Notes under the pieces: model-generated
Seen by the model: the letters and a program-made list of their open reading frames with translations, nothing else
Databases searched by the model: none
What the model was told of the DNA's origin: nothing
In this document: positions 194-37,272 of the stretch, one piece after another
How positions within the stretch are numbered: the stretch's first letter is position 1
How the letters are laid out: each line of letters starts with the position of its first letter
Translations under genes and position numbers: made by a program
Sequence record: FJ373894
Reading direction: 5' to 3' (one strand)
Length of the DNA: 64,000 nt
Origin: Shigella phage Ag3

Positions 194-529
194 TTATTTT
201 TGAACTTTGGCTACCGACATCGCCCAGAGTGGGAGGGTGTGTGAGTCCAGGGCTTCCAGCAGATATTCAATGCGCTCTGACATGATGCCTTCAGGGAAGT
301 TTACTTCTTCCGGCTCGTTATTGGCCGTCCAGCCCAGAGATAACCCTTCAGCGTGATGGATGATATAAACGAAGTCGCCTGATTCGTAGTCCTTTTCCAT
401 CAGGTCGAAGAACGCTTCCATCTCTTCGTCGGAGAAATAGTAGATGCGAGGTACAGAGCCGTCAGCAAAGTGCTCAGCGCCCTGGAAGGCAAACATGTCA
501 TCGGCTGTGAAGTTCTTGAGTTGTGTCAT
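194..529 (-). CDS. hypothetical early protein
   Basis: ORF 194..550; start moved to ATG at 529, which is preceded by the conserved GGAACTATATC initiation motif. Confidence 0.55.
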   Translation of the reverse strand: MTQLKNFTADDMFAFQGAEHFADGSVPRIYYFSDEEMEAFFDLMEKDYESGDFVYIIHHAEGLSLGWTANNEPEEVNFPEGIMSERIEYLLEALDSHTLPLWAMSVAKVQK

Positions 530-551
530 GATATAGTTCCTTCGGTTCAAA

Positions 552-827
552 TTAACGGCGGAAAGGGCGGTTTGCGTTTTCGCGGTTAGACCAATTCTTT
601 TCAGCCCGAGCGATAGCCGCTGGACTCCATTCGCGTTCCCACTCTTTGTCTACTTCAGCCTGGTTGGCAGGCTCTACCATTTCAACACCAGGGAAGTCGC
701 GTGACATGATTTCGCGCAGCTGGGCAGCTGGGGCAGTCTGGGCGTGGATCAATTCTTCGCCGTCGTAAACCTTGGCCATCAGGTATTTCTGGCCGTGGCG
801 GATATATGCGTCGAGGATAATTTTCAT
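552..827 (-). CDS. hypothetical early protein
   Basis: ORF 552..848; start at 827 after GGAACTACACC; early promoter plus stem-loop immediately upstream (876-922). Confidence 0.55.
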   Translation of the reverse strand: MKIILDAYIRHGQKYLMAKVYDGEELIHAQTAPAAQLREIMSRDFPGVEMVEPANQAEVDKEWEREWSPAAIARAEKNWSNRENANRPFRR

Positions 828-852
828 GGTGTAGTTCCTGCTTTTCAAGTTG

Positions 853-881
853 GTGTCGTACTGCTTATGGAATGAAGTATA
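853..881. repeat. 29-bp direct repeat (copy 1) of early-promoter cassette
   Basis: gtgtcgtactgcttatggaatgaagtata is identical at 853-881 and 36499-36527. Confidence 0.7.
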
Positions 882-922
882 GGGAAGGATATTGAAGAAG
901 TAAAGGGGCGTTTGCCCCTTTT
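876..922 (-). promoter_or_regulatory. early promoter fused to stem-loop (PeSL-like): -35 TTTACT, 17 bp, -10 TATACT
   Basis: Minus-strand TTTACT-N17-TATACT (plus 876-904) overlapping hairpin GGGGC-GTTT-GCCCC (905-918); upstream of gene 552..827. Confidence 0.6.
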
Positions 923-934
923 ATTGAATTATTT

Positions 935-1573
935 TTAAGGCGTTGGGTTCACAATCGGAATGTGGAATCTGATTCCTGCGATGATATCCTTCAGCTGTGG
1001 CTTCCAGCCATCTACCAAACGGGGTAGAGCGATAGCACCAGGCTGAACTAAAATGATGTCGCTGCCTGTGATATTGTGCTGAGGGAACTGGGCAAGGTAC
1101 TGCTCCATGGTGACACCCTCATCAATCAGAACCGCACCGACGTCAGACGATGCGTAGGTTGCACCCAGACCGTCAACGCCCCACGCCAAGATGCCCCAGT
1201 CAGGGATGTTGGCTTCAGATGTGATGGTGAACCCAAACACAGTGTTCAGGGAGGTGAAGGAATAGACATCGTGAGTGATGTCATACACCAGATACCCCTT
1301 GGCCAGCATATCGGCAAAGATCGCGTCCGTATCCCCCGCCGCTGGAGTTGGCACAGAAAACAGCAGCTCGCCCTCAGGAGGGGCAGGATACGTGCCGAGG
1401 GCATAGAGGCACCATGCATCAATGCACTTCTTAATGAACGCCTCGGGTGCGACATAATCGGCAAGGCGCACAGTCCCCGAGTACTCGGATACGATGATGC
1501 CTTCCTTCGTGCCCTGTAGAGCGATGAAGACCAAGATATGTTCATATCCGGTCTGAGATGGAGTGATGTTCAT
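935..1573 (-). CDS. hypothetical protein
   Basis: ORF 935..1669; start moved to internal ATG at 1573, which overlaps the stop of the upstream gene (TAATG). Confidence 0.5.
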   Translation of the reverse strand: MNITPSQTGYEHILVFIALQGTKEGIIVSEYSGTVRLADYVAPEAFIKKCIDAWCLYALGTYPAPPEGELLFSVPTPAAGDTDAIFADMLAKGYLVYDITHDVYSFTSLNTVFGFTITSEANIPDWGILAWGVDGLGATYASSDVGAVLIDEGVTMEQYLAQFPQHNITGSDIILVQPGAIALPRLVDGWKPQLKDIIAGIRFHIPIVNPTP

Positions 1574-2187
1574 TATCTTGTCCTCTTCAGTTTCTCTATC
1601 GTGCGCTTGTTCATGGCGATCACCCGAGGATCTACCTCGGAGATGGTCCGGCCTTTGAAGGACACACATTTCTGAAGATATTTAGCTTTCTTCACGACGT
1701 CAGCGGCATAAGCGTTCGATGCGGGATTACGGGCGAAGCCAGCATTGTAAGAGGAGAGGGATTTGCGTACATTCTGCTTGTGATAGGTCAGCCAGAACTG
1801 CATCTCATCGAGGGCGGCTTGCGCGGCATATTCTTGGTCGGTCAGCAACTTTATGGCGACATTGGCATAGCACTTGCGATTCTTACAACCTTCGCGATCA
1901 CCAACTGTCTTCACCTTGTTCTGAAAGGCTCCCATGTTGGCCGCCTTGAGACCGTAGCGCATTGACACTACATCTTCACCAGCACGGCTCTCTCGCCAAG
2001 ATATGGCAGCCAGGGTGTAACCAAGATCTTGTGTCTTGCCTATGTGGTAGGCAGTTGCCAGCGTATTAAGTTGTTGCTCAGAGAAATCATAAACACATTG
2101 ACTTGTATTTTGGGAAGCGTGCACATTCCCGCTGGCAATGGTAAAGGTCACGGACAAGGCCATGGCCTTCAACGTTGTCATCGTCAT
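1573..2187 (-). CDS. secreted lytic transglycosylase-like protein (SLT-type motifs)
   Basis: N-terminal signal peptide (MTMTTLKAMALSVTFTIASGNVHA); E-S catalytic pair (SWRESRAGE), GAFQ and YNAG motifs typical of SLT domains; AAGGAA RBS. Confidence 0.5.
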   Translation of the reverse strand: MTMTTLKAMALSVTFTIASGNVHASQNTSQCVYDFSEQQLNTLATAYHIGKTQDLGYTLAAISWRESRAGEDVVSMRYGLKAANMGAFQNKVKTVGDREGCKNRKCYANVAIKLLTDQEYAAQAALDEMQFWLTYHKQNVRKSLSSYNAGFARNPASNAYAADVVKKAKYLQKCVSFKGRTISEVDPRVIAMNKRTIEKLKRTR

Positions 2188-2286
2188 GATGGCGTTCCTT
2201 ATGTGGATTGTCGACTTGCAGCTCGCTTGAGCCTCCTGACAGGGGTTAAAAGATAAAGGGCACGTGGTATTTAGTGCCCTTTGGCC

Positions 2287-2565
2287 TCATTCATAGATGA
2301 GGTGGTAGGATTCTTCGATGCACTCCAGCCAGCCGTAGACGAACTGTAGAGGGTCATCCCAGTCACACGCCTTGCCGATCGTGAACTGACCGTCTAGACA
2401 ATCCCCGCGCTCGTAGAAGTTCACGGTGCCATCAATCGTGATAACGTTTCCAGTCTGCATCACTGCTTTGACACCAACCGCAACCTTGTGGTGTTTATGT
2501 TTCGCATTCCAGGTATCAGCAGCAATCTGGCCTGCCGAAAACAGTTCAACGTTGTCTTCTTTCAT
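2287..2565 (-). CDS. hypothetical protein
   Basis: 92-codon ORF in the same-strand early gene array. Confidence 0.45.
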   Translation of the reverse strand: MKEDNVELFSAGQIAADTWNAKHKHHKVAVGVKAVMQTGNVITIDGTVNFYERGDCLDGQFTIGKACDWDDPLQFVYGWLECIEESYHLIYE

Positions 2566-7281: not shown

Positions 7282-7809
7282 TCAGATACCGATAAATTCA
7301 TCAAAAGATCCAACAACCTTCTTCACTGAGATCTTGTCATTCTCAATCAGGAAGTTGCTGTCGTTTTTGGCTGCTGTGGCCCAGTCATCGGCAAGTTCGT
7401 TACCTTCGTGCCCCGCATGACCCTTAACCCATTTTAGTTCAACTTCACAAATTGAACAAACGAGATCATAGATTCTGAACAGATCTTTGATGAGTTCAAC
7501 GTTCTTGTCTGGGAAACCCTGATACTCCCACTTCGCTCGCCATTCGGTGACGCTCTTGATGGTGTATTGACTGTCAGACCAAATTGTTGCCTTTGGTATT
7601 CTGCGCTCACCCTTTCCTGAGAATGCCCACAGCAGCTTCAATGCGTTGGTCACACCCAACAACTCGGCGATGTTGTTGGTGGACGGGGGAGGTAGGTGAC
7701 CGAAGAACACCTTCCATTGCATACCCGATATTGGCCTGATGACAAATGCCCATCCTGCGGCCTGGTTGGTCTTCGGGTTAGAACCCCCGTCAGAATAAAT
7801 TTCTATCAT
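7282..7809 (-). CDS. rnhA: ribonuclease HI (RnhA-type)
   Basis: Motifs IEIYSDGGS, NNIAEL, IWSDSQY, KWVKGHAGHEGNELADDWA match E. coli RNase HI; start moved to ATG at 7809 (ORF track extends to 7905). Confidence 0.85.
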   Translation of the reverse strand: MIEIYSDGGSNPKTNQAAGWAFVIRPISGMQWKVFFGHLPPPSTNNIAELLGVTNALKLLWAFSGKGERRIPKATIWSDSQYTIKSVTEWRAKWEYQGFPDKNVELIKDLFRIYDLVCSICEVELKWVKGHAGHEGNELADDWATAAKNDSNFLIENDKISVKKVVGSFDEFIGI

Positions 7810-7810
7810 G

Positions 7811-7819
7811 ATATAAATA
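7811..7819 (+). promoter_or_regulatory. late-promoter-like box TATAAATAT
   Basis: About 36 nt upstream of plus-strand ATG 7855. Confidence 0.45.
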
Positions 7820-7854
7820 TCCCAAACTGGTTTTATAGAAAGAGGAATGAAACT

Positions 7855-11362: not shown

Positions 11363-12046
11363 TTACACCTCCACCGCGTGAGACTTCAGGAGTTCATCAA
11401 TCGCTTTCTGTCCCATATAAGAGAATGGGGTGCGCTGGTAGAATGCCCACAGAACCAACTGAACGACAGCGCGGGAACGGGTTTCGGCTCGCATCACCAG
11501 GTCGCTGAAATGAGGAGACTGCGCCGTCCATTGGATCTCTTCGCCCAGGTCTTGATTACAGGTCACGGAGATGCGGAACTTGTTGCACAGATTGTCGACT
11601 TCTTTGTACGCATCGGTAGACACCCGAAGTTGGTCTGCATGCGCCCATGGTGTCGTGACGATTCTTTCACCCATCACTTTATCAGAGATAAACCAATCAA
11701 TGGATTCAACAAACTTGCCGAAATGGTCGATGCGATAAATGCAGTCTCCCCCTTCCATAGAACGCATGGCATGATAGCGAGCGTCGATTTCGTTGTTGTG
11801 CATCGCGTTGAAGTCGATGAACACGCGACGCGCCAACACAACATCTTCCGGCTCCAGAGGGATGTATTCCCCTTCGTTGCTAGACCTCCGGATGTTCGGA
11901 TAATGTAGAATGCCGCTTAAATGCCCAGTGCAATATACATAACGAGGTCCAACACCCCCGACACGAGCATGAGCGACATAGGATGGTTCTGTGAATCGCA
12001 AGTGGCCTTGATCGGCACCGACGATAATAGAATAAAGTTTTTCCAT
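11363..12046 (-). CDS. hypothetical protein
   Basis: ORF 11363..12061; start at 12046 after conserved GAGAGACTATATC motif; terminator hairpin upstream. Confidence 0.55.
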   Translation of the reverse strand: MEKLYSIIVGADQGHLRFTEPSYVAHARVGGVGPRYVYCTGHLSGILHYPNIRRSSNEGEYIPLEPEDVVLARRVFIDFNAMHNNEIDARYHAMRSMEGGDCIYRIDHFGKFVESIDWFISDKVMGERIVTTPWAHADQLRVSTDAYKEVDNLCNKFRISVTCNQDLGEEIQWTAQSPHFSDLVMRAETRSRAVVQLVLWAFYQRTPFSYMGQKAIDELLKSHAVEV

Positions 12047-12059
12047 GATATAGTCTCTC

Positions 12060-12092
12060 AAATGAAAAGGGCGACCTTATGATAAGTCGCCC
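12060..12092 (-). terminator. rho-independent terminator
   Basis: Hairpin GGGCGAC-(9 nt loop)-GTCGCCC followed by TTTTCATTT on minus strand. Confidence 0.6.
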
Positions 12093-12103
12093 GAGGTTAT
12101 TGA

Positions 12104-13012
12104 TTATTGGAAATCACCAACATACATGTTCAGCTTGTCATCCCAGTTCAGAACAACACGGATCGTTGCGGTATCTTCTGGGAAGGTCAGTTTGTCACAC
12201 ATGGCGCGATTAACATAAGTCCCACTCTGGTTCACGTTGTAGTCCTTGCCTTGCATGATACCAAAACGCTTGAAGTCCCGTGTCACCATCATGTTCAGGG
12301 TCGCCCATGGGAGTGATTCACGCAATGCTTTACACAGGATAATCTTTCCATTCGGCCTGAATGATACAAACAACTCATTAGCAACCCGGCGGCGGGTGGG
12401 CGCCTCGAGTTCGCGCAGGGAGATAAATTCAGAGGGATCGTCCAATGCACCCAGGGTGATCATGTCTTCGCGAACTTTATTGACAATTTCAGTTACTGCT
12501 GACACGACTTCAACTGCCGGATTCGTCTTAAATGGCTCAACAGTCGTGGACATCTTGGATACAGACATCCCGTTGCCGTTGCGCTTCTCTGCATATTGCT
12601 CGACGGACTTGTCGCTCACTGGAGGCAGTTTGGTGGCAGGAGTTATGACCGGGCTTGCATCTGGTTTCGCCTTTGGAGTACTCCGAGCCGCACGCAGCTT
12701 TTCCTGGGCTTCCAGAATGCGCTCTTGACGAGAAAGTGGAGCCTTTGGGGTGATCTTCGTACTGAAGTCGGAAACACCCACCCAGTCACCCTGGTCATTA
12801 CGCTTGGCGACCAGAGTCAGTTTGTGGATGATGCCCTGAAGTTTGCTCTCACGCAAGTTGTCGGCATACCAGAACTTCGCGCCCATCTCGAACTTCTCGG
12901 CGAAGATCACGCGAGCGTCTTCGTGCACCAACATAACTTTGGCTGTGTTGGGGGCAAAAGCCTTATTCTTTTCGATAATCGCCGCAGCGATTGATTTGGT
13001 CAGGAGCATCAC
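12104..13012 (-). CDS. hypothetical protein
   Basis: 302-codon ORF, GAAGGAA RBS. Confidence 0.55.
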   Translation of the reverse strand: MMLLTKSIAAAIIEKNKAFAPNTAKVMLVHEDARVIFAEKFEMGAKFWYADNLRESKLQGIIHKLTLVAKRNDQGDWVGVSDFSTKITPKAPLSRQERILEAQEKLRAARSTPKAKPDASPVITPATKLPPVSDKSVEQYAEKRNGNGMSVSKMSTTVEPFKTNPAVEVVSAVTEIVNKVREDMITLGALDDPSEFISLRELEAPTRRRVANELFVSFRPNGKIILCKALRESLPWATLNMMVTRDFKRFGIMQGKDYNVNQSGTYVNRAMCDKLTFPEDTATIRVVLNWDDKLNMYVGDFQ

Positions 13013-15071: not shown

Positions 15072-15442
15072 AACGTACCCCCGACAGAGATCAAGAACTC
15101 TTCTTCAATGGTCGTGACAGGGCGGCGGTTGCGGGTTTCGATCATGAAGCCCCAGCCGCCGTCGGCGACGTTGCCAAAGGTCTTGACGCCAAAGGTCTTC
15201 GTCCTGTTGGAGCAGGCATAGAAGTCCAGGATGAACGGACTGCCCTGATTGTCGATCCCACGGTTTACGCCGTCCGATACGCAGCGCTCAATCATCTTCC
15301 CGTTCTTATACAGAACGAGGTCTTGGCCATACGCCTTGAAAGCATAAACGCCGTTGGTGGACACTCCGGTAATCACAGGAGGAGCGGAAACAACAGCGAA
15401 GGAAGCGCCCAGCAGGGCAACAGCGAGGATTAACTTTTTCAT
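15068..15442 (-). CDS. secreted protein (signal peptide)
   Basis: Start at 15442 (MKKLILAVALLGASFAVVSA) after GAGACTATATC motif. Confidence 0.55.
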   Translation of the reverse strand: MKKLILAVALLGASFAVVSAPPVITGVSTNGVYAFKAYGQDLVLYKNGKMIERCVSDGVNRGIDNQGSPFILDFYACSNRTKTFGVKTFGNVADGGWGFMIETRNRRPVTTIEEEFLISVGGTL

Positions 15443-15501
15443 GATATAGTCTCTTGATTTCAAATGGGCGAGGCAATCATACCTCGCCGGAGTTTATAGA
15501 A

Positions 15502-15741
15502 TTAACTGATATGCTTCAGAAGAGCGAAGAGGATCGCGGCCTTGGCCTTTACCTTTCCCACGACGCCTGTCTCGACATCAACTTCTTCAGCAACCCACTC
15601 TTTGCCCTTCTTGCTGATGATAACGTCACGGCGCTGTGCGTAGACTTCTTTGGTCGCATACACACGGCGGAACCCCTTTGCGCGCAGCAAGCCCCAATTG
15701 CGATCAATCTCTACTGAAGTTTCGACCATTTTGTTCTTCAT
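15502..15741 (-). CDS. hypothetical basic protein
   Basis: Start at 15741 after AGGACTATATC; early promoter 15795-15822 upstream. Confidence 0.5.
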   Translation of the reverse strand: MKNKMVETSVEIDRNWGLLRAKGFRRVYATKEVYAQRRDVIISKKGKEWVAEEVDVETGVVGKVKAKAAILFALLKHIS

Positions 15742-15794
15742 GATATAGTCCTGCTTTCAAACAGGCGGGAACTATTCCCGCCCCAGAATTTGAA

Positions 15795-15822
15795 TTATAC
15801 GTGAGTTATTGAAGAAGTAAAC
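15795..15822 (-). promoter_or_regulatory. early promoter: -35 GTTTAC, 16 bp, -10 TATAAT
   Basis: Minus-strand GTTTAC-N16-TATAAT; T4-early/sigma70-like; upstream of gene starting 15741. Confidence 0.6.
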
Positions 15823-15837: not shown

Positions 15838-16122
15838 TTAACTTCTCTCCCAGATGTCTTCCAGGACATCACGCATATTTCTGAGTTCCGGAGTATCACC
15901 GAAGAAAGTTTCCATTTCCCCCTCTTCACCACCCGCCAACAACCAGAATGAGCTGTCAAGGTCTTCTGGGTCTTCTTCGTGGAAGAAACCCTGCTCAACC
16001 ATTTTGATGATAGAAGGTTCGGCGCGCTTGAAGTCCTTTTCTGTCACCACATCAGAGTAGTCGAACTGGTTGTCATAAGACATGATGGAAATGATCTTAT
16101 CAAATATTTCTTTGCTGGTCAT
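15838..16122 (-). CDS. hypothetical acidic protein
   Basis: Start at 16122 after AGGACTATATC; early promoter 16171-16199 upstream. Confidence 0.5.
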   Translation of the reverse strand: MTSKEIFDKIISIMSYDNQFDYSDVVTEKDFKRAEPSIIKMVEQGFFHEEDPEDLDSSFWLLAGGEEGEMETFFGDTPELRNMRDVLEDIWERS

Positions 16123-16170
16123 GATATAGTCCTGATTTCATCGGCCTTCACAATGAAGGCCGTCTATTGA

Positions 16171-16218
16171 ATAATAGCGGGTGTTTATCTAAAGTAAAGC
16201 CCCAACAAATGTTGGGGC
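16171..16218 (-). promoter_or_regulatory. early promoter fused to stem-loop (PeSL-like): -35 CTTTAC, 17 bp, -10 TATTAT
   Basis: Hairpin GCCCCAACAAATGTTGGGGC (16199-16218) overlaps -35; upstream of gene starting 16122 and downstream of ACP-like gene. Confidence 0.55.
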
Positions 16219-19360: not shown

Positions 19361-21004
19361 TCAGATTTGTGAGGCCAGTTCCGCCACCAGAGGAGCGGCG
19401 CGGACACGCGCATCTTCCAGAGTTTGAGTGTTGAAGAACTTGCCGTCACGATACACCAGCTGGTGCTGGTTGTCGGCGTCTTGTACCTGATCAAAGGTGA
19501 TACCGTCAACCAACACTAGTTTACCCTGAGAGTCTTTAATGACTTTAAGGAAACCACGCGCAGACTTTTTAGTCCCGCCTTTATCGGTCTTCGGCTCTTT
19601 GAAGATCTCACGGAATTCACCGTTCACCTTACCAGCCGTTGCTTTCACCGCCGTGCCAGTACTGTCACGGGTGTTCATCTGGTAGGTGTAGGAACCGATA
19701 CCGAACACCACGTTGATGGAAGCGAAGTTCCGGCCAGCCAGACGGCTAAAGATCTGGTCTTCACGCGCCAGGGTGATGGAGTCGCCGTAAATCAGACCGA
19801 TGTGTTCGTCCAACAGGAAGTGGCCAGTTTCGGTCTGGGTCCCGCCAAAGATCTCCCACAGGCGCTGGATAGAGCCGACTGCTTCAGAACGGCTGATGAT
19901 ATTACGGTCGTCTGCCATCAGAGAGTTGATCGTGCCTTCGCCTGTAATCAGGTGATAGGTGTTCGTCTCTTCGATGTGAATGACTTCGGTGCTGCTAGAC
20001 ACGCCGCTGATGTTCAGCGTGGCGCGGTCTTTGAACCCCTCAATTCGGTAGCCGCCGACGATATGAACTGGGTCGCCCGAGTCAGGGCGGATCACGACTT
20101 TACCGTTACGCGCCATGATAATATCTTTCAGGCGCGGCAGATAGTCGTCGATGACCTGCCAGTAATCCCACGCATCAGACACGATGCTGACGATGCCATC
20201 AGGATACACGTCCTGCACCAGGCGGCGGAAGGTTTCGAATTCGCCATCCTTCGTACCCATACACATCACGGCGTGTTCGGTAGCCGCAACAGAACCAGCA
20301 ACGACATAGTCTTCGTCGATGTCTGCGCCATAATACTCTTCAACGAACGTGCGCCCACCGTCGCAGATATCATCGACCACCACCAGATAACGGTCTTTGA
20401 TCAGTTCAGGGTTTGTAATGCTCACCCCAATGATCTCACCAGTCTTGGTGTCACGGTTCTTGTGTCCGTAGACAACAGGAACGCCATCCAATGACAGGCT
20501 GAGGGCTTCGGTCTTCTTCGCCGCGCCGCCGTCAGGAGCTACCAGCACAGCGTTGTTCCCACGGATGAACCAGCCCAGATACTGCCGCACGATGTAATCT
20601 TGCGGGACAACATGGACGTTGTTGATCAGAGAAGTCACAACATGGCTGTGAGGGTCTTTGATCGCCACACGGTCAAAGTTCATGCTATTGATGAACTCAG
20701 CCGCCCACTTCACGGACAGAGGCTCTCCGAAGTCGCAATGGCGGTCCTGGCGAGCATACGGGAAGTAAGGGATATACGCATGGAAGGTCGTCAGACGGTC
20801 CACGTTACCCAGGCCGCGCACGGCGTTAACCAGCAGTGCCAGCTCAACGAAGTCGGCTGATGATTTGATGTGGGCATCAATCACCACGTTCTGGACGTGG
20901 CCGACAGGGATACCAGCCTTTTGGATCTTGATATGTTCCTCACCACCTGGGAAGGTGAAGTGTTTGTAGAACACATCTTGGTCGTTCAATTTCAAACGAA
21001 ACAT
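19361..21004 (-). CDS. fusion protein: ribose-phosphate pyrophosphokinase (Prs)-like N-domain plus nicotinamide phosphoribosyltransferase (NAMPT)-like C-domain
   Basis: N-terminus has IPYFPYARQDR and VVVDDICDGGRT (Prs motifs); C-terminus has VSDAWDYW, VIRPDSGDP, GLIYGDS and a long stretch alignable to NAMPT; single uninterrupted ORF; GAGG RBS. Confidence 0.75.
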   Translation of the reverse strand: MFRLKLNDQDVFYKHFTFPGGEEHIKIQKAGIPVGHVQNVVIDAHIKSSADFVELALLVNAVRGLGNVDRLTTFHAYIPYFPYARQDRHCDFGEPLSVKWAAEFINSMNFDRVAIKDPHSHVVTSLINNVHVVPQDYIVRQYLGWFIRGNNAVLVAPDGGAAKKTEALSLSLDGVPVVYGHKNRDTKTGEIIGVSITNPELIKDRYLVVVDDICDGGRTFVEEYYGADIDEDYVVAGSVAATEHAVMCMGTKDGEFETFRRLVQDVYPDGIVSIVSDAWDYWQVIDDYLPRLKDIIMARNGKVVIRPDSGDPVHIVGGYRIEGFKDRATLNISGVSSSTEVIHIEETNTYHLITGEGTINSLMADDRNIISRSEAVGSIQRLWEIFGGTQTETGHFLLDEHIGLIYGDSITLAREDQIFSRLAGRNFASINVVFGIGSYTYQMNTRDSTGTAVKATAGKVNGEFREIFKEPKTDKGGTKKSARGFLKVIKDSQGKLVLVDGITFDQVQDADNQHQLVYRDGKFFNTQTLEDARVRAAPLVAELASQI

Positions 21005-21114
21005 AATGTAGCCTCATGGTGTATTGTACAGCCGTATTATACTGTGATGCACAAATTGAAACACCCAGCAAATATACTGGGCGTCATTGATATTGAAGGA
21101 GTTTGATAATTCAG

Positions 21115-22767: not shown

Positions 22768-24786
22768 TTAGAACACAACTTTCACAGTGCGGTTGAACGA
22801 GCCGCTCACCTTCACGAACACGTGGTTGCGTTGGGTGGTAGAGAAGCCCAGACCGGACAGCTGCTCAGTGCTTGGCTGTACTTTAATCTTACCGCCTAAC
22901 ATTTCAAAAACCTTGCGGTGTTTATCAAGTTCCGGCTTCAGATATTCGTTGTAGAAGCCACGAGTGCCGACAGGGTTAGCACAACCTTCCAGGATGAAGA
23001 ACACGTGCTTGTTGCCCGTCTGCTCGCCGTCCCAATGGTTTGGTGAGTTCAGAACCAGCTGCACTTTCTGGAATACCGAGGTCTTGATGCCCCAGATTTC
23101 CTGCGAGCGTTCGTCGTCCTTCAGGGTAGAACGGATGTCTACCACTTGTCCAGCGCGGACATCAATCACAACAGCCAGAGTGCGATCTTTGTGCTTCAGG
23201 CCAGGATGCGAAAAACGCTTGGTCTGGCCTTTGTATTCAACTTCGATTTCGAAGCCCATATCACAGGTTTCACGCTGGCTGAAGTTAGTGACATAGAACT
23301 CGTACAGACCATCACGCAGCTTGCGTTCATCGCTGAAGAAGATGTTCTCCACCGGGCGGCGGTTGGGGTCAATACCGTCCATACCGTTCATGTCGATATC
23401 CAGGGTTGCGCCAGTTGCCGAGCGACGGTTGTGGTAATACACATGATTGTGTAAAGGATCGTTCAGGCTCAGATCCAGGTCATCGTTGTTATGCCACGCC
23501 AGGGACACACGGAGGAAACCGTCAACGTTGCCGCCTGCCGTCTTCACGCGCTCTTTGATGGAGTCGGCCACTTCACCGTTGTATGACCAGCTGAAGCCGT
23601 TGTTCCACTTGAACAGGTTAGGAGCGCCTGCGGTAGCCGGGGCGATCAGGGACATCAGGTTGCCAGTGTGAGAGTTTTCAACCAGCACTTCCAGGGAATG
23701 CGCCTTTGGCAACACGTTGGTCAGGAAGTCGTCGATGGTGATTTCTTCAACCTTGTCCAGGGACTTGGTCGGAGTCTTCACTTCAGACGCCAGCTGAGCA
23801 AACGGGTCCATCTTCTTCTGCGCTGCCAGGTCGGCAAACAAAACGTTGTTGATGGTCAGGTCGTCATATACAGCATAACGGCGGCCAAGGGATTCGGTCA
23901 GACCCAGCGCTTCGACTTCTTTCTGTGCGTTTTCAATCATGGACTTCGTGACCAGTGCAGTCGGGCGCTTATAGTTCTGAGGAGCGACTTTGGCTTCAAA
24001 GGACTTCACGGCGGTTTCCAGATCCCGACCTTCGTTGAGGTCTACCAACAGAGAGCCAATCACGGTATTACGGATGCCGTGAGGGGTGTGTCCGTTTGCA
24101 CGGTAGCCAGTACGCCAAGCCCACAGAGCGCGTTTCTCTTCTGCAGTTTGTTCGTACAGGGTCTTGCTCGTCACGAACGCCTGCACAGCAGCTTTGTGCT
24201 CTTCACCACGATACAGAGAATTCTGATCAATCAGTTCCAGAACGATTTCGGCCGATTCCAGAGACAGTTCACGCAGGCCGCGCTCAAACACTTCAATCGC
24301 CTGGCGGATTTCACCCTTCTTAGAAGCGATGACATCAGCCCGCAGAACATAGCTGGGCAGCAGGTCGGTGTGGAAGTGGTTGTAGGTGCGGACATTACCG
24401 TCTTTCATTTCGTGATTCGACTCAACACCGACTTTCTTGGTATCGTTGAAGTACACGTCGACGATTGCGTGTTGCTTGACATACGCAGACAGCGCCGCAG
24501 CGACAACGTCGTATTCGTTACCCAGCTGAATGTTATCCCAGATAGAGATCACGTTCAGGTCGGCGTCGATGGTCACCACACCGCCGATGTTACGGATGAA
24601 TTGTTTGCAGCAGGTGCAGTCGTGCTCGGTACGCTCACGGTAAAGCGGGTTGGTGCCAGCAGGGAAAGAAGACAGATACAGATCCCACAGAGCATCTTTA
24701 TCGATGTTGGTCATGAACAGACCAGTTGCTGACATGGCCAGCACGTTGTTATTAACAGCTACTGCGAAGGGCTTAAATTCTGACAT
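22768..24786 (-). CDS. hypothetical large protein (672 aa)
   Basis: Long ORF, start preceded by AGGAAGACTACATC variant of the conserved initiation motif; no motif recognised. Confidence 0.6.
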   Translation of the reverse strand: MSEFKPFAVAVNNNVLAMSATGLFMTNIDKDALWDLYLSSFPAGTNPLYRERTEHDCTCCKQFIRNIGGVVTIDADLNVISIWDNIQLGNEYDVVAAALSAYVKQHAIVDVYFNDTKKVGVESNHEMKDGNVRTYNHFHTDLLPSYVLRADVIASKKGEIRQAIEVFERGLRELSLESAEIVLELIDQNSLYRGEEHKAAVQAFVTSKTLYEQTAEEKRALWAWRTGYRANGHTPHGIRNTVIGSLLVDLNEGRDLETAVKSFEAKVAPQNYKRPTALVTKSMIENAQKEVEALGLTESLGRRYAVYDDLTINNVLFADLAAQKKMDPFAQLASEVKTPTKSLDKVEEITIDDFLTNVLPKAHSLEVLVENSHTGNLMSLIAPATAGAPNLFKWNNGFSWSYNGEVADSIKERVKTAGGNVDGFLRVSLAWHNNDDLDLSLNDPLHNHVYYHNRRSATGATLDIDMNGMDGIDPNRRPVENIFFSDERKLRDGLYEFYVTNFSQRETCDMGFEIEVEYKGQTKRFSHPGLKHKDRTLAVVIDVRAGQVVDIRSTLKDDERSQEIWGIKTSVFQKVQLVLNSPNHWDGEQTGNKHVFFILEGCANPVGTRGFYNEYLKPELDKHRKVFEMLGGKIKVQPSTEQLSGLGFSTTQRNHVFVKVSGSFNRTVKVVF

Positions 24787-24901
24787 GATGTAGTCTTCCT
24801 GTTTCAGTTCAAATGTGCGCCCCGTTTGCCAGGGCGCTTCGTTTAAGTGAGGTCAATAATACGTTGAAAAAAGTTATTGAAGAATGAAGTAAAGGGAATC
24901 T

Positions 24902-26191: not shown

Positions 26192-27061
26192 TTAATCGAT
26201 ACGGGTCAGCTGGGTTATAGATGGTTGCACTGGGCTGGCCACATAGATACGGACGTTGGCTTTCCATTCACCCCAGATCAACGGCAGAGTTGGGAAGTTG
26301 TCTTCATTGAAAACAAACACGGGAATATAACTCTCGACTGTTTCACCAGAGAACGCCTGGAAGCCCATCTTGGCGTACCCCATAATCTCGTCAACAAAGT
26401 CGAACGGAGCGAAGGCAACACCAGCGTGTTCGTTGCATCCGAGTTGACCTGGGGTAGCCGTGCCCGTCAGAATGATTTCGGTGATCTGGCGCTTAGGCTC
26501 GGTGGTCAACATATCAGAGAAGTCCGGCTCTTTGAATGCTGCCATGTTCTTCAGGAACTTGCCAGCCGGGTACTCTTTGCCGTCGACGGTGATGGTGTCT
26601 ACCACTTTGATGCACGCCTGAGGGAATTCCCCTTCGATGCGTAGACTTTCGCGTGGGAAGCCTTTGTTGTAGTAGTAATCCAGTGCAGGCACAACTTCAC
26701 CTTCATTACGGATGAACTTGCTCATGTTGGAAGCATAAACGCGCTGTAGGCACTCATCGCCGTCGAAACCAGCAATGTGAGCCACGCCGTCATTGACGGT
26801 GGTGATATCACCCTGAGCGTCCATGATGTCCTTCAGGATTTCCTGAATGGTTCTGGTCTGGTAAGGTTCTTGTTTAGGTGTGAGCACCAGATCCAGTTTC
26901 ACATCGCAATCGTAGTACGCCGCCTCTAACAGTTCGCGGGTCTCTTCCAGCACCAGTTTCGCCTGATTGCGGATCTTACCAAAGTCGGGCGATGTGACGT
27001 CGCCCTTTGCATTACCGAAAGCCAGATTCAGATTCACGTTCTTAGAAAATGTAGTTGTCAT
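26192..27061 (-). CDS. hypothetical protein (289 aa)
   Basis: Long ORF with GGAG RBS, immediately downstream of regA. Confidence 0.55.
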   Translation of the reverse strand: MTTTFSKNVNLNLAFGNAKGDVTSPDFGKIRNQAKLVLEETRELLEAAYYDCDVKLDLVLTPKQEPYQTRTIQEILKDIMDAQGDITTVNDGVAHIAGFDGDECLQRVYASNMSKFIRNEGEVVPALDYYYNKGFPRESLRIEGEFPQACIKVVDTITVDGKEYPAGKFLKNMAAFKEPDFSDMLTTEPKRQITEIILTGTATPGQLGCNEHAGVAFAPFDFVDEIMGYAKMGFQAFSGETVESYIPVFVFNEDNFPTLPLIWGEWKANVRIYVASPVQPSITQLTRID

Positions 27062-27077
27062 GATTTAGCGACTCCAG

Positions 27078-27473
27078 TTATTCGCTTTTGGCCTTTGTAG
27101 GCCGGATAATGTATTTTGGGACCAGCTTCCATTCAGGAACCTGATCGTGTTTAACCACTTTAATGCGTGACATATCGGCGGCTTCGGTGACCTGCTCGGG
27201 ATGAATGACCTTCACCATGTTCCACTGCTCAAGCAGCTTGATGATGCGGTTCATCCTCAGGACATCTTCGCGGTTAAACCCGTTGTAATGTCCGTCCAGC
27301 ATAAACAGATGCTTGAAGTGGACGATATAATACTTGCCATACTTATGAAGAATATGACAAGTCTGATACAGAGTATTCGGCTCTTGGCGCGTGTTTACCC
27401 CAATTCGGCTCAGTGTTTCCTTGATCCCCAGGAATATTCCTGGCCGATCTTGGTTCAATTGAACTTCAACCAT
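27078..27473 (-). CDS. regA: translational repressor RegA
   Basis: ETLSRIG, LYQTCHILHKYGKYYIVHFKHLFMLDG, EWKLVPKYIIRP match T4 RegA; start moved to 27473. Confidence 0.85.
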   Translation of the reverse strand: MVEVQLNQDRPGIFLGIKETLSRIGVNTRQEPNTLYQTCHILHKYGKYYIVHFKHLFMLDGHYNGFNREDVLRMNRIIKLLEQWNMVKVIHPEQVTEAADMSRIKVVKHDQVPEWKLVPKYIIRPTKAKSE

Positions 27474-27571
27474 ACAATCAACGATGCTGGCCTCATCGTT
27501 GACGGCTGAAATGTTCAATATGTCTAGCGTATTGCGCGCCATGACTCATTCCCCTTTTACAATAGTTTGAA

Positions 27572-33725: not shown

Positions 33726-33754
33726 AATAGCACCTTTTGCTGTGGAGATATTTT

Positions 33755-34405
33755 GTGACCCTGATGCGCGGGATCAGTAGATTGTTGTTGGCATGCGCGA
33801 TGCTCTTGCTTACGAGCTGTCGCATCTTTGTCACGCCAATAATTTCTGTTTCCGAACTCTGGAACCCAGAAGTACGCACCGTACCCGTGACGTTGTCGGC
33901 CAGTGTTCCTACTTGTAACAAGGGTATGCTGGACATCATCGTGCAAGAGTTCCAGACCTTTCAGAAGCTCGTGCCTTTGGGTTGCTTCGAGGAGAACACG
34001 AGCACCCTCAAGCCATACTGGAAGACCACGATTCCCCTCCTGCGTCGTGGCGATGAAGGGAAGATTCCATACCTATCAGCAAGTATTTATTACTCTCAGA
34101 ACAACAGCATCATCATCACTTTTAATCCATCATTCTACGCCAAGCTGAAGCAACACATGGTTGGGCGACTGAGTGAAACGTCGGATATAATCGTGACGTT
34201 CAAGATCATGAATGACTCAGACAAGCCAGTACGAATCGCAACTCAGGGTGTGTTTGTCAACAACGATGCTGTTGGGAATGAGATGAACATCTTCGAAGTT
34301 AACCCAGGGGGGACGATCTGGATTAGACTGAGTAATGTGGGTGTGAACTCCCTACTGTTGGATGGCATCGAACCAGTGGGAGTTCTTCCGGCGCGGGAGC
34401 GCTGA
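33755..34405 (+). CDS. putative lipoprotein (plus strand)
   Basis: GTG 33755 or ATG 33764 with GGAG RBS; MRGISRLLLACAMLLLTSC signal with lipobox. Confidence 0.5.
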   Translation: MTLMRGISRLLLACAMLLLTSCRIFVTPIISVSELWNPEVRTVPVTLSASVPTCNKGMLDIIVQEFQTFQKLVPLGCFEENTSTLKPYWKTTIPLLRRGDEGKIPYLSASIYYSQNNSIIITFNPSFYAKLKQHMVGRLSETSDIIVTFKIMNDSDKPVRIATQGVFVNNDAVGNEMNIFEVNPGGTIWIRLSNVGVNSLLLDGIEPVGVLPARER

Positions 34406-34406
34406 A

Positions 34407-35810: not shown

Positions 35811-36131
35811 TCACAGCGCCCCAAGATTGCCGATGACATACAGGGAGCACAGAGGAGTGCCTGACGAACGGGGTTCGATTGTCATCCCGCTCAGGCGGAT
35901 CAGTTCCAGTAAGCCGTCAGTGGTTTGATACGCGCGTGTCGAACCGTTCGGGCGATAAAGCTCCAGCTCGGTTCTTCCTTCCTTTAATGCATTACGGATA
36001 CGAGCGAACACACTGTGGTCGCCGAACTTCTGTTTCAGAAGGTCCAGCTTGGTGACCAGTCGACGACGCGATTTGCGCGCACGAGGGTTCTCTTTTACGA
36101 CCGCTTCTAAAATTGGGATGCTGTTAGCCAT
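35811..36131 (-). CDS. hypothetical protein
   Basis: 106-codon ORF. Confidence 0.45.
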   Translation of the reverse strand: MANSIPILEAVVKENPRARKSRRRLVTKLDLLKQKFGDHSVFARIRNALKEGRTELELYRPNGSTRAYQTTDGLLELIRLSGMTIEPRSSGTPLCSLYVIGNLGAL

Positions 36132-36190
36132 GATAAAGTCCTCTATTTGTAGGGGATAGGGTATGCGGTTAACATACCCCGTTCAAAGGT

Positions 36191-36472
36191 TTAGAACAAA
36201 TGCTCGCCTTCCACATGGTATGCTAACACGCCGTCAGAACATTCAAAATACATGTTATCATATTCCCACAGAGCGGTGATTTCTTCACCCTGGCAAACTA
36301 CCGAAAACTTCGGCTGGCTGGCCTTAACTGGAAATTTTTCAGGGGAAGAGATTGGGGTGAATTTGGCATTTCTGACGGCCATACCAACAAATTGCTGCAA
36401 TGTTACTTTGTAACGAGAGTGGGTGATAGTACCAGCATTCAGAGCTTCGATCAATTGCGCTTTAGTTGTCAT
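36191..36472 (-). CDS. hypothetical protein
   Basis: Start after GGAACTATATC; early promoter 36522-36550 upstream. Confidence 0.5.
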   Translation of the reverse strand: MTTKAQLIEALNAGTITHSRYKVTLQQFVGMAVRNAKFTPISSPEKFPVKASQPKFSVVCQGEEITALWEYDNMYFECSDGVLAYHVEGEHLF

Positions 36473-36498
36473 GATATAGTTCCTTCATTTCAGAGTCA

Positions 36499-36527
36499 GT
36501 GTCGTACTGCTTATGGAATGAAGTATA
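36499..36527. repeat. 29-bp direct repeat (copy 2) of early-promoter cassette
   Basis: Identical to 853-881. Confidence 0.7.
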
Positions 36528-36557
36528 CGGGGTTTATTGAAGAAGTAAACCCCGTAT
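36522..36557 (-). promoter_or_regulatory. early promoter fused to stem-loop (PeSL-like): -35 GTTTAC, 17 bp, -10 TATACT
   Basis: Perfect hairpin ATACGGGGTTTA/TAAACCCCGTAT contains -35; upstream of gene starting 36472. Confidence 0.6.
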
Positions 36558-36574
36558 TCAACTTTTTATTGAAT

Positions 36575-36811
36575 TTATTTAAAACGGTCAGGAAGGGTGT
36601 CGTGCAGTTCAGCTGACAGCACCAAGAACTTACCATCCGTCGTTGGGAAGCAATAGTCTTTATTGATGTGACGCAAGTGTTCAGCTACAGCTGCCACGCA
36701 GTCATCTGTCACGTCGGTCTTCTCACCAACCCACATGCTGGTTTTGGTGTTCAGCCTACCCTGGAATATAGTACCAGTCAGAGGGCTTGCGCCGATCTTT
36801 TTGATAATCAT
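36575..36811 (-). CDS. hypothetical protein
   Basis: 78-codon ORF. Confidence 0.4.
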   Translation of the reverse strand: MIIKKIGASPLTGTIFQGRLNTKTSMWVGEKTDVTDDCVAAVAEHLRHINKDYCFPTTDGKFLVLSAELHDTLPDRFK

Positions 36812-36819
36812 GTTTGACC

Positions 36820-37260
36820 TCAGTTAATGCGGAACAGATGTGGATAACCACCAGGATGACCCTGACCCGTAACGAACACGTCGAACTTCGAACCCTTGAT
36901 CAGGCCAGGCAGATTGCCAGAGTCCAGCAGTTCTCGGATCTGATCCATCGCCAGCATCCAGTTCTTAGCAGGTTCAGCTTCAGCCTCTCCACGATTGAGG
37001 ACGAGTTCACCTTCAGAATAATACTTCCCGCTGTCCTTCATGTAGTACAGCTTGATATGGATATACTGAGGGGATGGGACCAAACGCCAGCCGTCATCAA
37101 TCAGATCCTGGCGATCATTATCCAGGGACTGGTAATCGATCTCACCAGACGCCAGACCATAGCTGCGCATGTAGCGGAACTTCTCAACACGGTCTTTCAC
37201 GTCAGAGATGAAGAACTCCTTCGTGGCAGGACTGATGAAAATGTATTTCTCTTTTGACAT
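36820..37260 (-). CDS. hypothetical protein
   Basis: Start after AGGATCTATATC variant. Confidence 0.5.
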   Translation of the reverse strand: MSKEKYIFISPATKEFFISDVKDRVEKFRYMRSYGLASGEIDYQSLDNDRQDLIDDGWRLVPSPQYIHIKLYYMKDSGKYYSEGELVLNRGEAEAEPAKNWMLAMDQIRELLDSGNLPGLIKGSKFDVFVTGQGHPGGYPHLFRIN

Positions 37261-37272
37261 GATATAGATCCT

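What the first reader, a model, noticed from the sequence alone, without database searches (positions are those of the whole stretch)
527..37267. Conserved initiation-region motif GGA(A/C)CTATATCATG on at least seven early genes
Plus-strand catgatatag(t/a)(t/c)cc occurs at the starts of minus-strand genes at 529, 12046, 15442, 15741, 16122, 36472 and 37260, with close variants at 827, 24786 and 38153. Conservation covers RBS, spacer and start codon, more than ribosome binding needs, and often a TTTGAA element 15-25 nt further upstream. When read in frame it produces the spurious RNYIM/RDYIM N-terminal extensions in the ORF track. This suggests a shared translational operator (RegA is encoded here) or an RNA-processing site.
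Basis: seen in the sequence. Interest (0 to 1): 0.6.

Follow-up and report, generated by a model that had tools for sequence, protein, structure and literature searches.

The report
Shared ribosome-site cassette on phage genes
A near-identical ribosome-binding stretch (GGA, CTATATC, ATG) sits in front of about a dozen unrelated small genes of this ViI-like phage because it is the downstream end of a reusable promoter, hairpin and ribosome-site cassette. Genes are swapped in and out behind that cassette, so it is a real and conserved feature but of a kind already described in T4-like phages.

Summary
CTATATCATG occurs 7 times, all on the minus strand and all ending in the ATG of a real gene, where about 0.06 per strand is expected. 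Position-independent start-site statistics predict 0.06-0.21 such genes. The window comes from an Agtrevirus-like phage of the Ackermannviridae. The motif is a distinct class of start site: a weak Shine-Dalgarno (GGA or GAGA, never GGAG), a 7-nt spacer with family consensus nTAYAYY, an upstream TTGAA, and low predicted RNA structure. It is conserved at orthologous genes in five genera. It forms the 3' end of composite cassettes made of a GC hairpin, a T4-early-type sigma-70 promoter, a 5'UTR and the start site. One such cassette precedes six mutually non-homologous ORFs in different phages. Gene insertions and deletions between close relatives break exactly at the motif; denV, for example, is flanked by ACTATATCATGA repeats. 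This matches the PeSL 'mobile regulatory cassettes' of T4-like phages, which I did not find reported for this family. RegA is encoded here, but the genes it classically controls in T4 (44, 45, 62, regA) lack the motif. No RegB homologue was found. Whether the motif is also an operator remains untested.

The parts
527..551 (-). Start-site copy TTTGAA-CCGAAGGAA-CTATATC-ATG of gene 194-529 (111 aa, PHROG family of unknown function). It is the second gene of the operon, 22 nt after the upstream TAA stop.
825..904 (-). Cassette with promoter TTTACTTCTTCAATAT (889-904), -10 TATACT, the 5'UTR cattccataagcagtacgacac, TTGAA, GGAA, the variant spacer CTACACC and the ATG (827) of gene 552-827.
12044..12106 (-). 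Cassette with CAATAA, a GC hairpin (12069-12092, TTATCAT in the loop), TTTGAG, GAGA, CTATATC and the ATG (12046) of gene 11363-12046.
15440..15504 (-). Cassette with TTCTATAAA, a GC hairpin with TATGAT in the loop, TTTGAA, GAGA, CTATATC and the ATG (15442) of gene 15068-15442. In relatives, denV is inserted at this site between ACTATATCATGA repeats.
15739..15821 (-). Cassette with promoter TTTACT-16-TATAAT (15794-15821), a 5' hairpin, TTTGAA, GGA, CTATATC and the ATG (15741) of gene 15502-15741.
16120..16198 (-). Cassette with promoter TTTACT-16-TATTAT (16171-16198), a hairpin, TGAAA, GGA, CTATATC and the ATG (16122) of the ORFan 15838-16122. The whole module 15824-16190 is present or absent as a unit among relatives.
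24784..24889 (-). Cassette with TTCAAT-N14-TATTAT (24856-24881), a hairpin, TTTGAACTGAAACAGGAAGA, the variant spacer CTACATC and the ATG (24786) of the 672-aa gene. In other genera the spacer is CTATATC or CTATACC.
36470..36549 (-). Cassette with promoter TTTACTTCTTCAATAA-TATACT (36522-36549), the same 5'UTR as at 825-904, TGAAATGAAGGAA, CTATATC and the ATG (36472) of gene 36191-36472.
37258..37282 (-). Start-site copy TTTGAACTGAAGGAT-CTATATC-ATG (37260) of gene 36820-37260. The TGA inside TTTGAA is the stop codon of the upstream gene 37273-37500.
7807..7822 (-). Weak variant GGGATAT-TTATATC-ATG at the RNase H gene (7282-7809).
27059..27075 (-). Variant GGAGTCG-CTAAATC-ATG of the gene just downstream of regA. 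Orthologues in other genera have CTATATT.
21002..21015 (-). Variant GAGG-CTACATT-ATG of the NAPRTase-like gene 19361-21004.
36129..36143 (-). Variant GAGGA-CTTTATC-ATG of gene 35811-36131.
27078..27542 (-). The regA gene (translational repressor family PF01818). It is a candidate trans-acting factor and is not itself part of the motif.

Best explanation
The motif is the translation-initiation end of a family of composite regulatory cassettes. A full cassette runs: upstream stop codon, GC hairpin (a terminator or attenuator for read-through, or a 5' stem-loop on the new transcript), T4-early-type sigma-70 promoter (TTTACT-N16-TATAMT, or the family's TTCAAT-N14-TATAAT), a roughly 25-45-nt 5'UTR, (T)TTGAA, GGA, CTAYAYY and ATG. 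These cassettes head small, variable, pre-late genes of Ackermannviridae phages.

At the RNA level it is a ribosome-loading site with a weak Shine-Dalgarno, a fixed 7-8-nt A/U/C spacer and very little secondary structure. It resembles the T7 gene 10 leader.

Two forces keep it near-identical in front of non-homologous genes. First, purifying selection acts on the whole -30..-1 region. Second, the cassettes are repeated, and new ORFs are gained, lost or replaced by recombination within them. The 12-25-nt start-site repeat is itself a crossover site.

Shown here: the motif statistics, the cassette anatomy, the conservation across genera, one cassette preceding six unrelated ORFs, and indel junctions at the motif. 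Inferred: promoter and terminator activity, early timing, start-site strength, and recombination as the process that generates the pattern.
For: The statistics define a discrete class: 7 observed against 0.06-0.21 expected.

The start sites have distinctive properties. The Shine-Dalgarno duplex is weaker, -4.8 against -6.6 kcal/mol (p = 2.6e-4), and TTGA[AG] is enriched (p = 1.3e-5). The energy to open -15..+6 is lower, 4.0-5.3 against 7.4 kcal/mol (p = 0.003). Predicted folds leave the Shine-Dalgarno, spacer and AUG unpaired beside strong hairpins with z-scores of -2.6 to -3.9.

Sigma-70-like promoters TTTACT-16-TATAAT, -TATTAT and -TATACT lie upstream. They match the PeSL promoter consensus TTTACW-N17-TAYWAT and the PeSL anatomy described in PMC4122927 and PMC2839356.

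One roughly 65-nt promoter, UTR and start-site cassette precedes six ORF families with no pairwise BLASTP similarity at E <= 1e-3.

Homology breakpoints fall on motif ATGs. The denV insertion is flanked by ACTATATCATGA repeats, and a gene replacement in ChubbyThor sits behind the same cassette.

The motif is conserved in Agtrevirus, Limestonevirus, Kuttervirus, Taipeivirus and the Erwinia phage Bue1. For core orthologues, upstream identity is 0.87-0.93 against 0.56-0.75 at synonymous third positions.

The same 15-mer heads real ORFs in unrelated phage contigs: 38 of 80 distinct sites open ORFs of 60 aa or more. It also resembles the T7 gene 10 start site.
Against: Positions T2, A3 and A5 of the spacer are nearly invariant across about 30 genes and five genera, and changes elsewhere are mostly T/C transitions. 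That is tighter than a simple 'unstructured, A/U-rich' requirement predicts, and it hints at a sequence-specific reader.

Only about 9 genes per genome carry the exact motif, and they cluster. The other 94 kb of ChubbyThor has 2. Many genes next to a promoter lack it, so it is not simply 'the' early RBS.

Two copies (529 and 37260) have no promoter or hairpin of their own.

No expression, 5'-end or ribosome-profiling data exist for this family, and none were found in the searchable literature.
Confidence: 0.6

Rival explanations
1. The motif is a translational operator. The phage RegA protein, or another phage RNA-binding protein, binds GGA-CUAYAYY-AUG on a regulon of pre-late mRNAs and competes with the 30S subunit to shut their translation off. 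This could coexist with the cassette explanation.
For: regA is present, and three of T4's RNA-binding residues, T18, R21 and W81, are conserved.

T4 RegA sites are A+U-rich, unstructured, and lie between the Shine-Dalgarno and the AUG or over the AUG (PMC3014915). The motif has these properties.

The near-invariant nTAnAnY core suggests sequence-specific reading.

The motif is absent from all nine genes that sit behind a CTAAATA late promoter. The rIIA orthologue in ChubbyThor has GGATTT-CTATACT-ATG.
Against: Orthologues of T4's best-known RegA targets lack the motif: 44, 45, 62 and regA itself in this window, and dexA and dNMP kinase in ChubbyThor.

The motif has no 5' poly(A)/AAAUU tract like T4 sites. 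K14 and F106 are not conserved.

RB43-like phage loci lack the motif; from my own knowledge rather than a test here, those phages encode RegA.

The identical 15-mer is used as a start site by unrelated phages.

The identity between genes is already explained by cassette ancestry.
Confidence: 0.2
2. The motif is an RNA-processing site. A RegB-like phage endoribonuclease, or host RNase E or G, cuts in or next to the motif to inactivate early mRNAs. This would parallel T4 RegB with S1, which cuts at GG*AGRAYARAA.
For: T4 offers a precedent for an 11-nt conserved start-site motif on early genes that turned out to be a nuclease site, and RegB alone recognises GGA (PMC3014915). The relative ChubbyThor annotates a 'RegB'.
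Against: That ORF (window 1573-2187) matches no RegB family in Pfam, only a weak hit to the SLT lytic transglycosylase domain.

tblastn with T4 RegB finds nothing better than E = 2.3 in the window plus 100 kb of ChubbyThor.

None of the 7 sites has GGAG. The sequence 3' of GGA is pyrimidine/U-rich and not A-rich.

TTTGAA does not consistently fit the RNase E RN|WUU pattern.
Confidence: 0.05
3. The motif acts at the DNA level as a promoter. TTTGAA would serve as an upstream box and (C)TATATC as a -10 or late-promoter-like box, since it resembles the family late motif CTAAATA.
For: TATATC is 4 of 6 matches to TATAAT, and ACTATATC is 6 of 8 matches to ACTAAATA. TTGAA is the reverse complement of the TTCAA core of the known motif TTCAAT[N14]TATAAT.
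Against: The spacing from TTGAA to TATATC varies from 4 to 15 nt.

The element always abuts the ATG, so transcription would start inside the ORF.

True late promoters here lie 25-35 nt upstream of the ATG, with their own Shine-Dalgarno.

GGA lies at a fixed 7-8 nt from the ATG in 10 of the 13 motif sites, and 9-11 nt in three of the weaker variants. That pattern indicates a translational signal.
Confidence: 0.03
4. The motif is no more than the ordinary RBS consensus plus base composition, the outcome the first reader named as a refutation.
For: 30% of window genes have ATC at -3..-1, and A at -3 occurs in 70%, so part of the motif is a general preference.
Against: A column-independent model expects 0.06-0.21 genes against 7 observed. 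Shuffles give 0 matches. The rest of the genome has ATC at only 9% of starts.
Confidence: 0.02

Closest known systems
PeSL (promoter-early stem-loop) mobile regulatory cassettes of T4-like phages (Arbiol et al. 2010, PMC2839356; Comeau et al. 2014, PMC4122927)
   Same: Both are composites of a GC stem-loop (often between -35 and -10, or overlapping -10), a sigma-70-like early promoter (TTTACW-N17-TAYWAT in the T4/PST pair), and a Shine-Dalgarno plus start codon at the 3' end. Both occur in many copies per genome, sit next to ORFans in variable regions, and lie at insertion, deletion and replacement junctions between close relatives. In PeSLs, crossovers were mapped between -10 and the ATG.
   Different: The phage family is different (Ackermannviridae). 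[quoted passage not shown] Here the spacer between the Shine-Dalgarno and the ATG, and an upstream TTGAA, are themselves sharply conserved (nTAYAYY), and two copies stand alone without a promoter or hairpin. The promoter, terminator and mini-circle activities shown for PeSLs are untested here.
T4 RegB/S1 cleavage motif GG*AGRAYARAA in early translation-initiation regions (PMC3014915)
   Same: Both are about 11-nt conserved Shine-Dalgarno-plus-spacer motifs shared by many early genes, starting with GGA.
   Different: The motif here has no GGAG and no A-rich 3' part. No regB homologue was found.
T4/RB69 RegA operators (rIIB AAAAUUAUGUAC; gene 44 AAAUUAUGAUU; SELEX consensus AAAAUUGUUAUGUAA; PMC3014915)
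   Same: Both are unstructured, A+U-rich, and lie between the Shine-Dalgarno and the AUG or over the AUG. A regA gene is present in both phages.
   Different: The T4 sites have no sharp consensus, whereas this motif is sharp. The motif lacks a poly(A) tract and is not found on the clamp, clamp-loader or regA genes.
T7 gene 10 leader (aagaaggagatatacatATG), the classical strong phage start site
   Same: Both have a purine-rich GAAGGA core followed by a (A/C)TATA(C/T)-type spacer of 7-8 nt and then the ATG.
   Different: T7 has the full GGAG and an upstream epsilon element that pairs with 16S rRNA. The spacer here has no 16S complementarity.

Membership tests
PeSL-type composite regulatory cassette | A sigma-70-like early promoter of T4 type (TTTACW-N17-TAYWAT) | tested here: met
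   TTTACT-16-TATAAT (15794-15821), TTTACT-16-TATTAT (16171-16198), TTTACT-16-TATACT (36522-36549) and TTTTCA-16-TATTAT (37530-37557) were found. TTTACTTCTTCAATAA occurs 4 times on the minus strand at up to 3 mismatches, out of 5 matches on both strands against 0.3 expected. These are consensus matches only; promoter activity was not shown.
PeSL-type composite regulatory cassette | A GC stem-loop between -35 and -10, overlapping -10, or adjacent to the promoter | tested here: met
   Predicted hairpins have z-scores of -2.6 to -3.9. TATGAT, TTATCAT and TATTAT -10-like boxes lie in hairpin loops at 15442, 12046 and 37500.
PeSL-type composite regulatory cassette | A Shine-Dalgarno and the start codon of the downstream gene at the 3' end | tested here: met
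   The motif itself provides these.
PeSL-type composite regulatory cassette | Repeated copies next to variable ORFans, at indel or replacement junctions between close relatives | tested here: met
   Motif genes have no Pfam domain and fall in PHROG families of unknown function or in none. Homology breakpoints lie at 15438/15456, 12006-12043 and 15738-15760, and 15824-16190 behaves as a module. denV is flanked by ACTATATCATGA repeats. One cassette precedes six unrelated ORFs.
PeSL-type composite regulatory cassette | Demonstrated promoter and terminator activity, and excised mini-circles | not testable with these tools
   This needs experiments.
RegA translational operator | The phage encodes RegA with an intact RNA-binding groove | tested here: inconclusive
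   PF01818 matches at E = 1.9e-34. Against T4 RegA (PDB 1REG), T18, R21 and W81 are conserved, while K14 is G and F106 is H.
RegA translational operator | The site is unstructured, A+U-rich, and lies at or just 5' of the AUG | tested here: met
   Opening energy is lower than for other genes (p = 0.003), and predicted folds leave the site unpaired.
RegA translational operator | The site is present on the conserved RegA regulon (44, 45, 62, regA, rIIA/B, dexA) | tested here: not met
   The start sites of 44, 45, 62 and regA in the window lack the motif, as do dexA and dNMP kinase in ChubbyThor. Only rIIA has a loose variant.
RegA translational operator | RegA binds the site and represses translation | not testable with these tools
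   This needs binding or genetic assays.
RegB/S1 cleavage site | The phage encodes RegB | tested here: not met
   The ORF annotated as 'RegB' in a relative has only a weak SLT-domain hit in Pfam. tblastn with T4 RegB gives a best E-value of 2.3. A structural analogue of RelE/YoeB type cannot be excluded.
RegB/S1 cleavage site | A GGAG core followed by A-rich RAYARAA | tested here: not met
   All 7 sites read GGAA, GGAC, GGAT or GAGAC followed by CUAUAUC.
Ackermannviridae late promoter CTAAATAcCcc | A match to the motif, placed 25-35 nt upstream of the ATG with its own Shine-Dalgarno downstream | tested here: not met
   The motif matches 5 of 7 positions and abuts the ATG. Genuine CTAAATA sites are seen at 31955, 35135, 40846, 46354, 50650 and 61497.
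Ackermannviridae promoter TTCAAT[N14]TATAAT | A fixed 14-nt spacing between the two boxes | tested here: not met
   The spacing from TTGAA to TATATC is 4-15 nt. True TTCWAT-N14-TAWWAT sites lie further upstream, at 24856-24881 and 37530-37555.

The most novel reading that the evidence does not exclude
GGA-CUAYAYY-AUG, together with the upstream UUGAA, could be the recognition site of a sequence-specific post-transcriptional regulator of Ackermannviridae. The regulator might be the divergent RegA or an unrecognised nuclease or repressor, and it would switch off a regulon of pre-late, mostly accessory genes. If so, this would be the first sharply defined operator for a RegA-family protein. The near-invariant T2, A3 and A5 of the spacer across five genera, the weak Shine-Dalgarno, and the motif's absence from late-promoter genes are compatible with this reading.
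Probability: 0.2. Interest if true: 0.6.

Novelty: new member of a known kind. Interest (0 to 1): 0.35.

Why it matters
Early and middle gene control in ViI-like (Ackermannviridae) phages is essentially uncharacterised. The CBA120 and AG3 genome papers state that early promoters and regulators could not be identified.

The cassette gives three practical things:
- A usable signature for correct start-codon calls. Several database annotations and mechanical ORF calls start at the in-frame TTG of TTTGAA.
- A map of likely pre-late transcription units.
- A concrete explanation for how accessory genes such as denV and many ORFans are swapped between genera. This matters because these phages are used for biocontrol and engineered for host range.

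It also extends the PeSL idea beyond the T4-like phages proper. If the spacer turns out to be read by RegA or another factor, it would provide a clean operator for a protein whose T4 targets have no consensus.

Tried and rejected
- **16S rRNA pairing of the spacer (an enhancer like T7 epsilon).** No 6-mer complement of the motif occurs in E. coli rrsA. The best duplex, -7.2 kcal/mol, is weaker than the mean for shuffled spacers, -8.3. Rejected.
- **A RegB-type nuclease.** Pfam and tblastn were both negative.
- **Known RNA families or tRNAs.** There are no Rfam gathering-threshold hits and no tRNAs in the window.
- **A promoter reading.** The spacing is variable and the element abuts the ATG. 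Rejected.
- **A conserved N-terminal peptide.** The distance from TTG to ATG is 15, 19 or 21 nt and an upstream ATG lies 17 nt away, so the frames differ and one contains a TGA. Rejected.
- **An antisense partner.** The plus strand of the window has no copy of the 10-mer, and no inverse copy lies in a transcribed orientation in ChubbyThor 1-100 kb.
- **IMG/VR scan for AGGAACTATATCATG.** It is mostly chance-level noise. It was useful only for the 21 Ackermannviridae loci and for showing that the 15-mer is used as a start site elsewhere.
- **Literature.** One transcriptome search and one sequence-string search returned nothing relevant. The Viunalikevirus genus paper could not be read, so whether it mentions this start-site motif is unknown.
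- **Concerted evolution within genomes.** Spacer variants are not clearly homogenised per genome. Inconclusive.

Full report
**Identity of the window.** The window is 95-97% identical over 86-93% of its length to Agtrevirus phages of the Ackermannviridae: Shigella phage ChubbyThor, Salmonella phages SKML-39 and P46FS4. Almost all genes lie on the minus strand.

**Observation.** The 10-mer CTATATCATG occurs seven times. All copies are on the minus strand, and each ends in the ATG of an ORF of 79-227 aa. The A of the ATG lies at 529, 12046, 15442, 15741, 16122, 36472 and 37260.
- I curated 73 minus-strand starts using coding potential, Shine-Dalgarno scoring and the ChubbyThor annotation.
- A at -3 (70%), T at -2 (55%) and C at -1 (48%) are general preferences, and 22 of 73 genes end their spacer in ATC.
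- A column-independent model still predicts only 0.06-0.21 genes with CTATATC, against 7 observed. This is a discrete class of start site.

**Near variants.** They occur at 827, 24786, 7809 (RNase H), 21004, 27061, 36131 and 35341; 38153 is weak.

**Distribution in the genome.** In the other 94 kb of the closely related ChubbyThor genome, only two more exact copies sit at gene starts, gp114 and gp131. ATC before the start codon falls to 9% there. That makes about nine copies per genome, and they are clustered.

**Properties of the class** (13 motif starts against 60 others):
- TTGA[AG] at -32..-11 occurs in 8 of 13 against 3 of 60 (p = 1.3e-5).
- The Shine-Dalgarno duplex is weaker, -4.8 against -6.6 kcal/mol (p = 2.6e-4). 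The core is GGA or GAGA and never GGAG.
- Less energy is needed to open -15..+6, 4.0-5.3 against 7.4 kcal/mol (p = 0.003).
- GGA lies 7-8 nt from the ATG in 10 of the 13 sites and 9-11 nt in three of the weaker variants, whereas TTGAA floats 4-15 nt upstream of the spacer.
- The gene products have no Pfam domain and fall in PHROG families of unknown function or in none.
- The near variants head RNase H, a NAPRTase-like enzyme, and genes next to the 5-hmdU DNA kinase.
- None of the nine genes behind the family's late-promoter motif CTAAATA carries it.

**Context.** Reading the intergenic regions shows that the motif is the 3' end of larger repeated units.
- Upstream lie T4-early-like sigma-70 promoters: TTTACT-16-TATAAT, -TATTAT or -TATACT. 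TTTACTTCTTCAATAA gives five matches at up to 3 mismatches, four of them on the minus strand, against 0.3 expected.
- The published family motif TTCAAT-N14-TATAAT also occurs.
- GC hairpins have z-scores of -2.6 to -3.9. Several carry the -10 box in their loop, and others sit at the 5' end of the predicted transcript. All leave the Shine-Dalgarno, spacer and AUG unpaired.
- In the 15741 cassette the UUUGAA pairs with an upstream UUCAAA. TTGAA is the reverse complement of the TTCAA promoter core.
- The 5'UTRs at 827 and 36472 are near-identical over about 45 nt, although the two proteins are unrelated.

**Match to a known element.** This anatomy is that of the PeSL (promoter-early stem-loop) cassettes of T4-like phages. 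A PeSL has a stem-loop between or over the promoter boxes, a sigma-70 early promoter (TTTACW-N17-TAYWAT in the T4/PST pair), and the Shine-Dalgarno and start codon at its 3' end. PeSLs lie next to ORFans in hyperplastic regions, and recombination between copies was mapped between -10 and the ATG.

**Evidence for shuffling.**
- In Ackermannviridae contigs from IMG/VR, the same roughly 65-nt promoter, UTR and start-site cassette (...TATACTTCATTCCATAAGCAGTACGACAC...TGAAATGAAGGAACTATATCATG) precedes six ORF families. None shows pairwise BLASTP similarity at E <= 1e-3.
- The hairpin cassette at 15442 precedes denV, a 92-aa ORF or a 168-aa ORF in other phages.
- Local BLASTN of the window against 22-kb orthologous loci puts homology breakpoints on the motif ATGs: 15438/15456, 12006-12043 and 15738-15760. 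The segment 15824-16190, which is the ORFan plus its cassette, is present or absent as a whole module.
- In P46FS4-like and LIMEstone1-like genomes, denV (451 nt) is flanked by direct repeats of ACTATATCATGA, where the window has a single copy.
- ChubbyThor has one 123-aa gene where the window has two genes, behind the same cassette and in front of the same terminator.
- Insertions at the ATG with 7-9-nt overlaps also occur at three non-motif genes. Start-site microhomology therefore seems to be a general insertion route that the long motif would favour.

**Conservation across genera.**
- Motif-type start sites occur at orthologous and at lineage-specific genes in Agtrevirus, Limestonevirus, Kuttervirus (phage barely), Taipeivirus (KpS110) and the Erwinia phage Bue1. 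They do not occur in RB43-like loci that share the vWFA gene.
- About 30 distinct gene N-termini carry it.
- The consensus is nTAYAYY. T2, A3 and A5 are almost invariant, and the variation elsewhere is mainly T/C.
- For two core orthologues, the -30..-1 region is 87-93% identical between genera, against 56-75% at synonymous third positions. The whole start region is therefore under purifying selection, not the spacer alone.

**Mechanism.** I commit to the following. The motif is the ribosome-loading module of PeSL-like cassettes. It has a weak Shine-Dalgarno, a fixed spacer and little structure, and it resembles the T7 gene 10 leader. The same 15-mer heads real ORFs in unrelated phages. Its identity in front of unrelated genes comes from cassette ancestry and recombination, together with purifying selection. 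Promoter and terminator activity, early timing and start-site strength are inferred and were not shown here.

**Rivals.**
- *RegA operator.* RegA is present, with T18, R21 and W81 conserved and K14 and F106 changed. The motif has the general properties of RegA sites. However, genes 44, 45, 62, regA, dexA and dNMP kinase lack it. I give this 0.2. It could coexist with the cassette model.
- *RegB-like processing.* There is no homologue and no GGAG. I give this 0.05.
- *A DNA-level promoter.* The spacing is variable and the element abuts the ATG. I give this 0.03.
- *Pairing with 16S rRNA.* Rejected.
- *Known RNA families.* No Rfam family matches.

**Novelty.** The AG3 and CBA120 genome papers say that early regulatory signals of these phages could not be identified. 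Later work cites only TTCAAT[N14]TATAAT and CTAAATAcCcc. I rate it a new member of a known kind, with moderate interest.

Noticed in passing
window 12069-12092, 15470-15490, 37530-37550, about 26140-26160, about 21040-21060 (minus strand): The -10-like boxes (TTATCAT, TATGAT, TATTAT, TATAAT, TATATT) sit inside the loops of GC-rich hairpins. The same sequence can therefore act as a terminator for read-through transcription and as a promoter for the next gene.
   Followed up: partly
window, upstream of the ATGs at 31955, 35135, 40846, 46354, 50650, 59034, 61497, 2187 and 57151 (minus strand): The family's late-promoter motif (A)CTAAATA(cccc) lies 25-35 nt upstream of structural and late genes. 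None of these genes carries the CTAYAYY start-site motif.
   Followed up: partly
window-wide gene starts compared with ChubbyThor 1-94 kb (L122, L123): ATC directly before the start codon occurs at 22 of 73 genes in the window, including genes in the capsid region. It occurs at only 12 of 130 genes in the rest of a closely related genome. This regional bias is unexplained.
   Followed up: partly
window 1573-2187 (minus strand): The orthologue in ChubbyThor is annotated 'putative endoribonuclease RegB'. Pfam gives only a sub-threshold match to the SLT lytic transglycosylase domain, and T4 RegB shows no similarity. The annotation is probably wrong.
   Followed up: yes
window 24902-26122 (minus strand) and its neighbours 22768-24786 and 26192-27061: A 5-hmdU DNA kinase (PF18723, E = 8.5e-82) lies directly downstream of the clamp-loader and regA genes. 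It is probably part of the thymidine hypermodification cluster of ViI-like phages. The flanking genes of 289 aa and 672 aa have no Pfam domain.
   Followed up: no
window 57250-59034 and 61698-63719 (minus strand): Two large genes share an identical start site and N-terminus (aacaacaggagattc..ATGaatccgcaa). They look like paralogous tailspike-type genes with a common N-terminal module.
   Followed up: no
window 26116-26122, 7266-7278 and 22285-22291: Relatives carry insertions of 612, 738 and 229 nt exactly at the start codons of non-motif genes, with 7-9-nt overlaps. Gene insertion at start-site microhomology therefore seems general in this family.
   Followed up: partly
window about 20340 (inside the NAPRTase-like gene 19361-21004): P46FS4 and another relative have an 864-nt insertion inside this gene. 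It is possibly an intron or a homing-endonuclease element.
   Followed up: no
window 29739-30446, 7810-8618 and 33726-34406: These are long stretches without a minus-strand gene. The first is A+T-rich, holds a small plus-strand ORF (30079-30456), and lies upstream of the sliding-clamp gene. The other two hold plus-strand ORFs of 308 aa and 222 aa whose reality was not checked.
   Followed up: no
IMG/VR loci L002, L013, L055, L103, L105; L025, L027, L033: Unrelated A+T-rich phage contigs use the identical AGGAACTATATCATG start site, often preceded by (T)TGAA and a strong sigma-70 promoter, in front of conserved genes (MAYVTYKNR..., MAHELEI...). This could be convergence on a strong start site or horizontal spread of leader sequences.
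   Followed up: partly
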